A stretch of 12,797 nt of DNA from a virus: the UHGV virus genome UHGV-1675436; one strand, 5' to 3'. Positions within the stretch are counted from its first letter, which is position 1, and each line of letters begins with the position of its first letter. Shown here in pieces: positions 9,001-12,000 of this stretch. Made by a program: the position numbers.

Positions 9001-12000
9001 GGCCAACTCACCCTGCTGTTCTTTGGTTAAAGAGTCCCAATACGCTTTCATACAATATGTACCTCCGGTATACATATTACATGATTGAGATGAACCTTCA
9101 AGATACTTGTACCTTATCGGTACAAAGGTTTTAATTTCTTTATGAAAACAGTCCATGACATCCGGCGGTCTAACGCCAGAAAACTGAGAGATGGTGTTGG
9201 CGGGAATTCTTCCTTTGCCACCATGATTGATCGCGAGCCAACCCAGACCAGCAGGTTTATGGGAGATGGTGCAACTAAAAATATCGGTGACAGCATGGCA
9301 CGGCACATCGAAAAATGTTTCGACCTGCCTGTCGGATGGCTTGATCAAGAACACCAGACAACAAACATCACAAAAAAACCTGATGTTTCAATTACTAACA
9401 AACAAATAACGTTAGTCCCTGTCATATCATGGGTACAGGCCGGAGCATGGAAAGAAGTTGGCTATTCTGAGGTTGATTTGAGCACAGCAGAAACTTATCC
9501 CTGCCCTGTACCCTGTGGCGAAATGACTTATATCTTGCGGGTGATTGGTGATTCAATGATTGATGAGTACCGCCCGGGAGACATGATTTTTGTTGATCCT
9601 GAAGTCCCTGCCTGCCACGGTGACGACGTTATTGCATTGATGCACGATTCAGGCGAAACCACCTTCAAGCGGTTGATAGAAGATGGAACACAGCGTTATC
9701 TCAAAGCATTAAACCCAAACTGGCCTGAGCCTTACATTAAGATTAACGGTAATTGCTCTATAATTGGTACAGTGATTTTCTCGGGAAAACCAAGAAGATA
9801 CACAATAAAGGCCTAATCAATATTTATGAACCTGCTTCGGCAGGTTTTTTTATGCTTGACAATGTACCCATGAGATACATAATGTATCTAAAAGAAACAT
9901 AACACAGGCAAGATTAAAACAAAATTTGGTTGTAACACGGCGTATGGCACATGCGTCGTTAGCGGTCTGGGGACGTTAAAGGGGACAATCCACTCCTTGC
10001 TCGGGCAAACAAACCAGGTAGCCGGAATGTGCAAGTCAATGATAATGCTGATAAGACGCCTAACCAGCGTGGCGATCCGGTTTGACGCCTGGGAAGAGAC
10101 CAGGGTGCAACGATGAGGGTATTTATGGAGCCGCGACAAAGTGTGGTGCCGTAACTGGCTAAGTGCTCTCAGCGTTGTGGTAATCCGCGAAATGGCGCGG
10201 CGGTAAGTATGGCGGGGTTACTCTTTCCCCGTTGAGGACACCGGATTGTCAGGTTGACCATACGCCTGAGTGACAACCCCACCACAACAGCCACTGCTTT
10301 GGCGGTACCAGTTTGTACACTTGCTTCCGGCTGGTACCGCTCTTTTTACAAAACAGAGAAGAGCATCACCGGACGACGGGCTCATAACCCAATCCATCCG
10401 GGCGGCTGCCACCGCAGGTGTTCTTCTCTGTTTTGTGGAGAAACCAACCGACCTTGCAGGGTCGATATGATTAGGAGCAGCAAAATGGCTAGCGAACGCA
10501 GTACTGATGTGCAGGCATTTATCGGGGAGCTGGACGGCGGCGTATTTGAAACAAAAATCGGCGCAGTTCTCAGTGAAGTCGCTTCCGGTGTGATGAACAC
10601 GAAAACCAAAGGTAAGATCTCACTCAACCTGGAAATCGAACCATTTGATGAGAACCGTGTGAAAATCAAACACAAACTCTCATATGTTCGCCCGACTAAC
10701 CGCGGGAAAATTTCCGAAGAAGACACCACCGAAACGCCGATGTATGTCAATCGCGGTGGTCGCCTGACTATTCTGCAGGAAGACCAGGGACAATTACTGA
10801 CTCTTGCCGGTGAACCTGACGGAAAACTCCGCGCAGCAGGTCATTAATATCGTTCTTAATTAACCGATTATTTATCTCATCACTGAATATCTTTATATAG
10901 TGAGGACTTATTATGTCTCAGAACTTAGACGCAACCGCAATTAATCAAATCCATGCCCTTATTTCTGCTCAGGGTGTTAATGAAATTATCAGTAAGATTG
11001 GTGCCGATGCTGTGGCATTGCCTGAGAATTTCCGCATTCATGATCTGGAAAAATTAAATTTAAATCGCTTCCGTTTCCGTGGTGCGCTTTCCACTGCCAG
11101 CATCGATGACTTTACTCGTTATTCTAAAGATCTTGCAGATGAAGGCACCCGCTGCTTTATCGATGCTGATAATATGCGTGCCGTCAGTGTTCTTAACCTG
11201 GGTACTATTGATGAACCAGGTCACGCAGATAACACCGCCACTCTCAAACTGAAAAAGACAGCTCCGTTCTCTGCTCTGTTGTCTGTTAATGGCGAGCGTA
11301 ACTCCCAGAAGTCACTGGCAGAATGGATTGAAGACTGGGCCGACTACCTTGTGGGCTTTGATGCTAATGGTGACGCCATTCAGGCAACCAAAGCGGCTGC
11401 GGCGATCCGTAAAATCACAATTGAAGCGAACCAGACCGCTGATTTTGAAGATAATGACTTCAGCGGCAAACGCTCCCTGATGGAGTCTGTCGAAGCGAAG
11501 ACCAAAGACATTATGCCAGTGGCATTTGAATTTAAATGCGTTCCGTTTGAAGGTCTGAAAGAACGTCCGTTTAAATTACGCCTCAGCATTATCACTGGCG
11601 ATCGTCCTGTACTGGTTCTGCGCATTATTCAGCTGGAGGCGGTGCAGGAAGAAATGGCTAACGAATTTCGTGATCTGCTTGTTGAGAAATTCAAGGACAG
11701 CAAAGTAGAAACCTTTATTGGTACTTTCACCGCCTGATTTCATTACTGCAAATGCCCCTGCGGGGGCATTTATGGAAACGTAATTTACTCAATAATCGCC
11801 GGATGGTGAGGGATTCTTTTTACCAGAATTCAGCGCGGTGCAGCGCATATACGTGGAGAACAAAATGTCATTTATCAAAACTTTTTCTGGGAAGCATTTT
11901 TATTATGACAGGATAAATAAAGACGACATCGATATTAACGATATCGCGGTTTCCCTTTCAAATATCTGTCGCTTTGCCGGTCATCTTTCGCACTTCTACA

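What the first reader, a model, noticed from the sequence alone, without database searches (positions are those of the whole stretch)
9052..9900. Shared 19-bp 7-5-7 operator at both OR and OL, with a leaderless CI-like gene
Three sites share half-site wTGTAyC in the same geometry: OR-A ATGTACC-N5-TATACAT (9057-9075), OR-B TTGTACC-N5-GGTACAA (9107-9125) and OL1 ATGTACC-N5-GATACAT (9862-9880), with a weaker tandem OL2 (9882-9900). They sit where lambda operators would: over the cro promoter and SD, over the pRM-like -35, and over the pL-like spacer and -10. The cI-like ATG has no SD and lies 7 nt after a TTTAAT -10, implying a leaderless mRNA. This gives a specific, testable operator consensus for this immunity type.
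Basis: seen in the sequence. Interest (0 to 1): 0.5.

Follow-up and report, generated by a model that had tools for sequence, protein, structure and literature searches.

The report
e14/SfV-type prophage repressor operators
This is the ordinary lambda-style on/off switch of the common E. coli e14/SfV prophage type; the repeated 19-bp sites are real, conserved repressor-binding sites, and the repressor's leaderless mRNA has already been shown experimentally in E. coli K-12.

Summary
All four 19-bp sites sit at the stated coordinates. The motif is far above chance: 5 hits against 0.39 expected, all in the two regulatory regions. The half-sites are strongly conserved and the 5-bp spacers drift freely in 25 related loci, with CI identity from 99% down to 56%. 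That pattern is the signature of a protein-binding operator.

OR therefore has three operators, as lambda does.

The leaderless reading is also right. A TnTAAT -10 lies 6-7 nt before the ATG in 24 of 28 loci, and no locus has a usable SD.

None of this is new. The repressor is 99% identical to YmfK of the K-12 cryptic prophage e14, and cro is ymfT. The module occurs in 1324 of 5426 complete E. coli genomes. The SfV GenBank record already marks exactly 9057-9125 as a "putative operator region". Published differential RNA-seq maps the ymfK start site to the first base of its start codon.

What remains untested is repressor binding itself and the order in which the sites are occupied. Interest is low.

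The parts
8851..9051 (-). cro-like gene (66 aa; ymfT/croE type)
   Evidence: Pfam gives weak YdaS/HTH_3 matches and PHROG 35 is a transcriptional repressor family. RefSeq annotates it as ymfT and SfV annotates it as cro.
9057..9075 (.). Operator OR-A (OR1-like), ATGTACC-TCCGG-TATACAT. It covers the last 2 nt of the pR -10, the predicted pR start and the DNA that encodes the cro SD (GGAGG, 9062-9066).
   Evidence: It is conserved in all 26 loci. Its spacer is also constrained, because it carries the SD.
9074..9079 (-). Predicted pR (cro promoter) -10, TAATAT on the minus strand
   Evidence: The aligned hexamer is TAATAT, CATAAT or TATAAT in 26 of 28 loci, always 16 bp from a TTGnnG -35. This is inferred; no TSS data exist.
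9090..9108 (.). It covers the pR -35, is centred at -43 from the cI start site, and shares 2 bp with OR-B.
   Evidence: It has 2 mismatches. The left half, ATGAACC or ATGTACC, is present in 22 of 26 loci although it lies in the pR spacer, where the promoter imposes no constraint.
9096..9101 (-). Predicted pR -35, TTGAAG on the minus strand
   Evidence: The TTG is conserved in 27 of 28 loci and the spacer is 16 bp.
9107..9125 (.). Operator OR-B (OR3-like), TTGTACC-TTATC-GGTACAA. It spans -35 to -17 of the cI promoter, and its left half is that promoter's -35 (TTGTAC).
   Evidence: It matches the pattern with 0 mismatches. Half-site information is 1.78 bits against 0.30 for the spacer. The right-hand end of the SfV 'putative operator region' maps to 9125.
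9130..9135 (+). cI promoter (pRM-like) -10, TTTAAT, 17 bp after TTGTAC
   Evidence: A TnTAAT-type hexamer lies 6-7 nt before the ATG in 24 of 28 loci, 17 bp from the -35 in 23 of 28.
9142..9816 (+). cI-like repressor gene (224 aa, YmfK/CohE type). Transcription is predicted to start on the A of its ATG, giving a leaderless mRNA.
   Evidence: The protein is 221/224 identical to YmfK. It has an S24 peptidase domain that matches the lambda CI C-terminal domain, including the VQAG cleavage site, the GDSM Ser and the FK Lys. The model's N-terminal domain is helical, and its fold matches lambda repressor and SPC32H Rep. The e14 ymfK TSS has a leader of 0.
9828..9854 (+). Intrinsic terminator after cI
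   Evidence: The hairpin has 8 pairs and is followed by a T run. It is annotated in SfV and Ayreon and is conserved in position in related loci.
9856..9883 (+). pL-like early promoter, TTGACA-16-CATAAT
   Evidence: It matches 11 of 12 consensus positions. Ayreon annotates a promoter here. TTGACA and CATAAT are near-invariant in the enterobacterial loci.
9862..9880 (.). Operator OL1, ATGTACC-CATGA-GATACAT. It fills the pL spacer and the first 3 nt of the -10.
   Evidence: It matches the pattern with 0 mismatches. Half-site information is 1.91 bits against 0.45 for the spacer across 26 loci.
9882..9900 (.). Weak operator OL2, ATGTATC-TAAAA-GAAACAT. It lies 20 bp centre to centre from OL1, over the predicted pL start.
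   Evidence: It has 1 mismatch. The left half, ATGTACC, is conserved. The right half is degenerate (GnAAC), and the whole site is missing in several loci. Half-site information is 1.10 bits.

Best explanation
This is the immunity switch of an e14/SfV-type lambdoid prophage.

The 224-aa repressor has an N-terminal helix-turn-helix domain and a C-terminal S24 self-cleaving domain, and is of the YmfK/CohE type. It is inferred to bind as a dimer to 19-bp operators whose half-site is (A/T)TGTACC. The two GTAC cores lie about one helical turn apart.

At OL, OL1 fills the spacer and -10 of the strong early promoter, helped by the weak adjacent OL2. At OR, OR-A covers the -10 edge and start of the cro promoter, and OR-mid covers its -35. 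Together they would shut off cro and the downstream early genes.

OR-B lies on the -35 and spacer of the repressor's own promoter. It would give negative autoregulation and/or be the site through which Cro (YmfT) turns cI off.

cI is transcribed from a weak promoter (TTGTAC-17-TTTAAT) that starts on the A of the ATG, so its mRNA has no leader and no SD, as for lambda cI from pRM. DNA damage would trigger RecA-stimulated cleavage at Ala-Gly and derepress both promoters.

Shown here or in the literature: the sites, their conservation, the protein domains, and the leaderless start in e14. Inferred: binding, dimer geometry, occupancy order, activation from OR-mid, the cro start site, and cleavage.
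For: - The sites are present and non-random.
- The motif is confined to OR and OL in 26 loci. It gives 99 hits against about 4.8 in shuffles.
- Half-sites are conserved and spacers vary at OR-B and OL1.
- Three OR sites and a more distant OL-like site persist in Halomonadaceae at 42-52% CI identity.
- Residues T34, Q35, S37 and R38 of the predicted recognition helix are invariant or nearly so across the family.
- Pfam finds an S24 domain. The C-terminal domain matches lambda CI at E 8e-18, with VQAG, GDSM and FK aligned to Ala111-Gly112, Ser149 and Lys192.
- The N-terminal domain matches the SPC32H Rep N-terminal domain at E 1e-8. The model has four N-terminal helices at pLDDT 83-90. Its best fold matches are lambda repressor and, at lower rank, SPC32H Rep.
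- The promoter hexamers and their spacings are conserved.
- The e14 ymfK TSS has a leader of 0, and the e14 regulatory region is 106/111 identical to the window.
- The SfV GenBank 'putative operator region' coincides with 9057-9125.
Against: - I could find no binding experiment for this repressor or Cro.
- Conservation of the OR-A spacer, the OR-mid spacer and the OR-B left half is partly explained by the SD, the pR -35 and the pRM -35, so those sites are less cleanly diagnostic than OL1 and the OR-B spacer.
- OR-mid has 2 mismatches, and the right half of OL2 is degenerate.
- The best OR site lies on the repressor's own promoter, which does not fit simple lambda logic.
- Pfam finds no HTH in the N-terminal domain.
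- The loci are phylogenetically related, so the information values overstate independent evidence.
Confidence: 0.85

Rival explanations
1. The palindromes act as RNA hairpins or terminators rather than as protein-binding DNA. The scan flagged OR-B as terminator-like.
For: One search lists 9107-9125 as a 7-pair stem followed by a T-rich tail.
Against: The same half-site sequence recurs at five places, and its sequence is conserved with no compensatory changes. The stem is weak, with only 3 GC pairs. OR-B lies upstream of the mapped cI start site and upstream of the predicted cro -35, so neither promoter in this region transcribes it. OL1 lies inside the promoter spacer.
Confidence: 0.03
2. Only some of the sites are real operators: OL1, OR-B and OR-A. 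OR-mid and OL2 look conserved only because they overlap promoter elements or happen to carry a half-site, so the switch has two OR sites.
For: OR-mid has 2 mismatches, and its spacer conservation (CAAG) is explained by the pR -35. OL2's right half is degenerate and is lost in several loci.
Against: OR-mid's left half, ATGAACC, lies in the pR spacer, where the promoter imposes no constraint, yet ATGAACC or ATGTACC is present in 22 of 26 loci. The register of OR-mid relative to OR-B is fixed in all enterobacterial loci. OL2's left half is ATGTACC in most loci, at a fixed 20-bp offset from OL1.
Confidence: 0.12
3. The sites are bound by a host or other phage factor instead of CI and Cro, for example LexA or the CII-like CP76 protein encoded downstream of cro.
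For: e14-type prophages respond to DNA damage (the iModulon and SOS context). A CII-like gene is present at 8256-8819.
Against: From my own knowledge, the LexA box is CTGT-N8-ACAG. Here the TGT and ACA triplets are 13 bp apart, so the motif does not fit. The sites track the cI-cro pair across genera and sit on both divergent promoters and on pL, which is the arrangement expected for the immunity repressor. CII-type activators act at direct repeats flanking a -35, not at palindromes over core promoters (established knowledge for lambda CII).
Confidence: 0.02

Closest known systems
Immunity region of the E. coli K-12 cryptic prophage e14 (ymfK/cohE repressor, ymfT/croE)
   Same: The repressor is 221/224 identical. 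OR is 106/111 identical, and OL carries the same promoter and operators. The gene order cro - OR - cI - terminator - pL is the same. ymfK mRNA was mapped as leaderless in MG1655.
   Different: There are a few substitutions, mostly in spacers or outside the sites (9089, 9117, 9127, 9139). One lies at a degenerate half-site position (9070). OL2 in the window reads ATGTATC where e14 reads ATGTACC. The DNA downstream of OL2 is unrelated. The window also carries a C4/isrK RNA module downstream of cro, as SfV does.
Shigella phage SfV (also SfIV, cdtI phage, Ayreon, 2H10 and some Stx2c phages)
   Same: The DNA is 96-99% identical across cro-cI-pL. The SfV GenBank record annotates a 'putative operator region' whose ends map exactly to 9057 and 9125. 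Ayreon annotates the pL promoter and the terminator.
   Different: These records give no explicit operator consensus and no OL operators. SfV differs from the window downstream of pL (77% coverage).
Phage lambda OR/OL, pRM and leaderless cI
   Same: cI and cro are divergent and flank three OR operators. OL operators lie on the early promoter downstream of cI. CI is an HTH plus S24 protein with the Ala-Gly, Ser and Lys features. One OR site sits about -43 from the cI start and another on the cI promoter. The cI mRNA is leaderless.
   Different: The operator is 19 bp (7-5-7, GTAC core) instead of 17 bp. The OR spacings are 33 and 17 bp, with a 2-bp overlap of two sites, instead of 24 and 23 bp. 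OL has two sites rather than three. The SfIV paper found no N, cII or cIII homologue in SfII, SfV or SfIV. The window does carry a P2/186-type CII (CP76) gene and an RNA-based second immunity module.
Salmonella phage SPC32H Rep (PDB 5D50)
   Same: The N-terminal DNA-binding domain is homologous (profile E 1e-8; 74 aligned columns, rmsd 2.0 A, 36% identity).
   Different: Only residues 1-88 match 5D50. The window protein's C-terminal domain is lambda-CI-like instead. From my own knowledge, Rep is inactivated by an antirepressor rather than by self-cleavage.

Membership tests
Lambdoid CI/Cro immunity switch | Divergently transcribed repressor and cro genes separated by a short multi-operator region | tested here: met
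   cro is 8851-9051 (-) and cI is 9142-9816 (+), separated by a 90-bp gap that holds three motif copies.
Lambdoid CI/Cro immunity switch | A second cluster of the same operators on the other early promoter (OL/pL) | tested here: met
   OL1 and OL2 overlap TTGACA-16-CATAAT at 9856-9900. The arrangement is conserved in 25 loci.
Lambdoid CI/Cro immunity switch | Repressor made of an N-terminal HTH domain and a C-terminal S24 autoprotease with an Ala-Gly site and a Ser/Lys dyad | tested here: met
   Pfam S24 scores E 2e-26. VQAG, GDSM and FK align to the lambda CI cleavage and catalytic positions. The N-terminal domain is helical in the model and is homologous to a solved phage repressor N-terminal domain. 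Pfam itself gives no HTH hit.
Lambdoid CI/Cro immunity switch | Operators are bound by both repressor and Cro, with differential affinity | not testable with these tools
   Only conservation supports binding. No binding data were found in the held literature.
Lambdoid CI/Cro immunity switch | Maintenance transcript of cI is leaderless (a lambda pRM property, not universal) | tested here: met
   A -10 lies 6-7 nt before the ATG with no SD in 24 of 28 loci. Published dRNA-seq gives a leader of 0 for e14 ymfK, and the promoter is nearly identical. This particular prophage has not been measured.
Lambdoid CI/Cro immunity switch | N/nut antitermination and lambda-type cII/cIII | tested here: inconclusive
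   I found no N-like gene. The 595 nt between the predicted pL start and the next gene have no Rfam match. The SfIV paper reports no N, cII or cIII in SfV-type phages. A CP76-type CII gene is present. I did not run a dedicated nut search.
e14/SfV immunity type (YmfK-YmfT) | Repressor and operator DNA essentially identical to e14/SfV, which would imply homoimmunity | tested here: met
   The repressor is 99% identical. All operator half-sites match MG1655 e14 except one base in OR-A and one in OL2. The DNA is 96% identical to SfV. Homoimmunity itself was not tested.
LexA (SOS) box | CTGT-N8-ACAG palindrome | tested here: not met
   The site sequences have TGT and ACA 13 bp apart and lack the flanking C and G. 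The LexA consensus is taken from established knowledge.
Intrinsic terminator | GC-rich hairpin followed by a U run, in a transcribed position, with the stem kept by covariation | tested here: not met
   OR-B is flagged by the scan, but its stem has only 3 GC pairs. The stem is conserved in sequence and shows no compensatory changes. It lies upstream of the mapped cI start.

The most novel reading that the evidence does not exclude
The switch may be wired differently from lambda. The best-matching and most conserved OR operator (OR-B) sits on the repressor's own promoter. The site at the lambda-OR2-like activating position (-43) is the weakest and shares 2 bp with OR-B, a 17-bp centre-to-centre distance. 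This geometry is conserved from Escherichia to Halomonadaceae. If the two overlapping sites cannot be occupied together, autoregulation would work by competition between an activating and a repressing position, combined with the RNA-based (C4/isrK) second immunity downstream of cro. That would be a distinct variant of the lambdoid switch.
Probability: 0.2. Interest if true: 0.35.

Novelty: already known. Interest (0 to 1): 0.15.

Why it matters
It matters little beyond annotation. The region is the immunity module of the e14/SfV prophage type, present in about a quarter of complete E. coli genomes and in some Stx2c- and CDT-converting phages. An explicit operator consensus, (A/T)TGTACC-N5-GGTACA(T/A), with three OR and two OL sites, is useful in three ways. 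It helps annotate these prophages. It helps predict homoimmunity among toxin-converting phages. It would help design the first binding experiments on YmfK and YmfT, which the recent E. coli papers I read still call putative or predicted regulators. It does not open a new question.

Tried and rejected
- I could not read Allison et al. 2002 on SfV (PMC134923) or Mehta, Casjens and Krishnaswamy 2004 on e14 (PMC331406). Neither is held. I therefore cannot say how precisely they defined the operators. From memory, the 2004 abstract says the repressor and Cro binding sites were identified.
- Several literature searches were uninformative: SfV terms, cohE/croE, where word-start matching swamped the result, and ymfK plus operator. 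The SfIV paper mentions the operator only generically.
- The Reg-Seq, iModulon and gSELEX papers give no YmfK or YmfT binding site.
- Pfam finds no HTH in the CI N-terminal domain. A PDB profile search and a structure model resolved this.
- A permissive Rfam search of the long pL leader, 9850-10520, found nothing.
- The 3-mismatch motif search adds only a chance-level hit at 6037.
- I considered the extended palindrome around OR-A (9048-9061 and 9071-9084). I set it aside because it is explained by the cro start and the pR -10, and no such extension is seen at OL1.
- I rejected the terminator reading of OR-B and the LexA-box reading (see rival explanations).
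Full report
**1. The observation**

- OR-A 9057-9075: ATGTACC-TCCGG-TATACAT
- OR-B 9107-9125: TTGTACC-TTATC-GGTACAA
- OL1 9862-9880: ATGTACC-CATGA-GATACAT
- OL2 9882-9900: ATGTATC-TAAAA-GAAACAT

Expectation is 0.39, and none of 200 dinucleotide-preserving shuffles reaches 5. All five hits lie in the two regulatory gaps.

It overlaps OR-B by 2 bp. Relaxing to 3 mismatches adds only one chance-level hit, at 6037.

**2. The genes around the sites**

cI is 9142-9816 (+) and encodes 224 aa. cro is 8851-9051 (-) and encodes 66 aa. 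Its GGAGG Shine-Dalgarno sequence, 9062-9066 on the minus strand, sits inside the OR-A spacer.

CI has a Pfam S24 peptidase domain at E 2e-26. A family profile matches the lambda repressor C-terminal domain at E 8e-18. In that alignment VQAG, GDSM and FK line up with lambda's Ala111-Gly112 cleavage site, Ser149 and Lys192.

Pfam sees no HTH in residues 1-75. The profile, however, matches the N-terminal DNA-binding domain of Salmonella phage SPC32H Rep (PDB 5D50) at E 1e-8. An AlphaFold model gives four N-terminal helices at pLDDT 83-90. The best structural matches of the whole model are lambda repressor and, at lower rank, 5D50.

Downstream of cro lie a CP76-type CII gene and an 'Ash' ORF.

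**3. Comparative evidence for operators**

A protein search found full-length CI homologues from 88% down to about 40% identity across Enterobacterales and Halomonadaceae. I fetched 79 loci.

In the window plus 25 non-redundant enterobacterial loci, with CI identity from 99% to 56%, every motif hit at up to 2 mismatches lies in the cro-cI gap or 44-92 nt after the cI stop codon. None lies elsewhere. The 25 loci total 134 kb. They give 99 hits, against about 4.8 in shuffled sequence.

The aligned regulatory regions show a classic footprint. At OR-B the half-sites carry 1.78 bits per position and the 5-bp spacer 0.30. At OL1 the values are 1.91 and 0.45.

OR-A and OR-mid are conserved too. Their spacers are also constrained, because they carry the cro SD (CCTCC) and the TTG of the cro -35 (CAAG). 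OR-mid's left half, ATGAACC, lies in the cro promoter spacer, where the promoter imposes no constraint. ATGAACC or ATGTACC is nevertheless present in 22 of 26 loci. I therefore count OR-mid as a third operator.

OL2 keeps its left half, ATGTACC, but its right half is degenerate, and the site is lost in several loci.

In Halomonadaceae, at 42-52% CI identity, the three OR sites persist. An OL-like site lies 1-1.5 kb further downstream.

T34, Q35, S37 and R38 in the predicted recognition helix are invariant or nearly so across the family. This fits the invariant GTAC core.

**4. Promoters**

- pL is TTGACA (9856-9861), a 16-bp spacer, then CATAAT (9878-9883). It matches 11 of 12 consensus positions. 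OL1 fills its spacer and the start of its -10, and OL2 covers the expected start site.
- The cI promoter is TTGTAC (9107-9112, the left half of OR-B), a 17-bp spacer, then TTTAAT (9130-9135). Six nucleotides follow before the ATG.
- Across 28 loci the -10-like hexamer is 6-7 nt from the ATG in 24. It is 17 bp from the -35 in 23. No locus has an SD-like element at a usable distance.
- For cro I predict TTGAAG (9096-9101, minus strand), a 16-bp spacer, then TAATAT (9074-9079, minus strand). Both are conserved in position in nearly all loci. That puts the start near 9066-9069, so OR-A covers the start and OR-mid covers the -35. This promoter is inferred only.

Relative to the cI start at 9142, OR-mid is centred at -43, which is lambda's OR2 position. 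OR-B spans -35 to -17, which is lambda's OR3 role.

**5. It is already known**

- The cro-OR-cI-OL stretch matches 1324 of 5426 complete E. coli genomes. There the genes are annotated ymfT and ymfK.
- The repressor is 221/224 identical to YmfK.
- MG1655's cryptic prophage e14 has an OR region 106/111 identical to the window, with the same pL and OL.
- Romero et al. 2014 (PMC4681348) mapped transcription start sites in MG1655 by differential RNA-seq. They list ymfK among only five leaderless E. coli mRNAs, with the TSS on the first base of the coding sequence and a leader of 0 (Table S3). Their coordinate, 1202156, differs from the current 1202933 by 777 nt. I attribute that to the older genome version, which is an inference.
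- The window is also 96-99% identical to phages SfV, SfIV, cdtI, Ayreon, 2H10 and some Stx2c phages.
- The SfV GenBank record (U82619.2) carries a 'putative operator region' feature. Its ends map exactly to 9057 and 9125, the outer edges of OR-A and OR-B. Ayreon's record annotates the pL promoter and the cI terminator.
- From memory, Mehta, Casjens and Krishnaswamy (BMC Microbiol 2004, 4:4) state that they identified the e14 repressor and Cro binding sites. I could not read that paper or the SfV paper.
- I found no binding experiment. The recent E. coli papers I read still call YmfK and YmfT putative or predicted regulators.

**6. Mechanism**

Shown:
- the five sites, their conservation and their positions
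- the repressor's domain make-up
- the leaderless start in e14

Inferred:
- CI dimers bind the 19-bp sites, with the GTAC cores about 11 bp apart on one face of the helix.
- OL1, with OL2, blocks pL.
- OR-A and OR-mid block the cro promoter.
- OR-B gives negative autoregulation and/or is the Cro target that shuts off cI.
- RecA-stimulated cleavage at Ala-Gly induces the prophage.

One thing does not fit lambda logic. The best and most conserved OR site is the one on the cI promoter. The site at the activating position is the weakest and overlaps it by 2 bp (17 bp centre to centre). OR-A lies 33 bp from OR-mid. Sequence alone cannot tell which sites are filled first or whether the overlapping pair can be filled together.

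**7. Rivals**

- An RNA hairpin or terminator reading of OR-B fails. The stems are conserved in sequence with no covariation, the same half-site recurs five times, and OR-B lies upstream of the mapped start.
- A LexA box does not fit the spacing.
- The most serious rival is that OR-mid and OL2 are not functional operators. I give this about 12%.

**8. Verdict**

The feature is the known e14/SfV immunity region, and its leaderless cI has been demonstrated experimentally. Novelty: already known. Interest: low.

Noticed in passing
window 7711-7899 (-): Rfam gathering-level hits to C4 antisense RNA (7711-7798, 82.8 bits) and isrK (7823-7899, 63.7 bits). Both lie inside the 278-aa ORF 7423-8259 (-), which SfV annotates as 'immunity region'. 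That ORF's Pfam Phage_ASH match (aa 117-209) falls on the same DNA as the RNAs. This looks like a second, RNA-based (P1/P4/Gifsy-like) immunity or antirepressor control downstream of cro. The protein annotation over it may be spurious or overlapping.
   Followed up: partly
window 9900-10485: About 595 nt separate the predicted pL start from the next convincing gene (ATG 10485, with an AGGAG upstream). The stretch has no convincing gene and no Rfam match even at E<=1. It contains a long imperfect inverted repeat (10348-10372 and 10412-10436, 25 nt, 84% complementary). This stretch differs from e14 and most relatives. They instead carry a conserved element, ...CAGGCAGGACGCCCACGAAGTAGCCGCC..., right after OL2.
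   Followed up: partly
window 9107-9125 and 9090-9108; loci L003-L033: OR-mid and OR-B share 2 bp (GrTACTTGTACC) in every enterobacterial locus. They are 1 bp closer in Halomonadaceae. The best-consensus OR site lies on the repressor's own promoter. The geometry is unusual compared with lambda, and its consequences are unknown.
   Followed up: partly
window 8256-8819 (-): The gene after cro matches Pfam Phage_CP76 (the P2/186-type CII regulator, E 3.5e-15). The SfIV paper reports that SfII, SfV and SfIV lack a lambda-type cII. A CII-dependent establishment promoter reading towards cI would give a leadered cI transcript alongside the leaderless one. I did not search for it.
   Followed up: no
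loci L014 and L015, just after OL1: In two relatives the OL2 left half, ATGTACC, is followed by a GGTACA half-site at 14 or 17 bp instead of 5 bp. This suggests an alternative spacing or a displaced half-site.
   Followed up: no
window 9142-9366 (CI residues 1-75): The N-terminal DNA-binding domain has no Pfam match. tblastn matches confined to CI residues 1-71 occur in Pseudomonas phage vB_Pae_BR201a ('transcriptional regulator', 58% identity) and Ralstonia phage Hennie (41%). It is also homologous to the N-terminal domain of the antirepressor-controlled SPC32H Rep. The same DNA-binding module therefore appears to be combined with different C-terminal or induction domains.
   Followed up: partly
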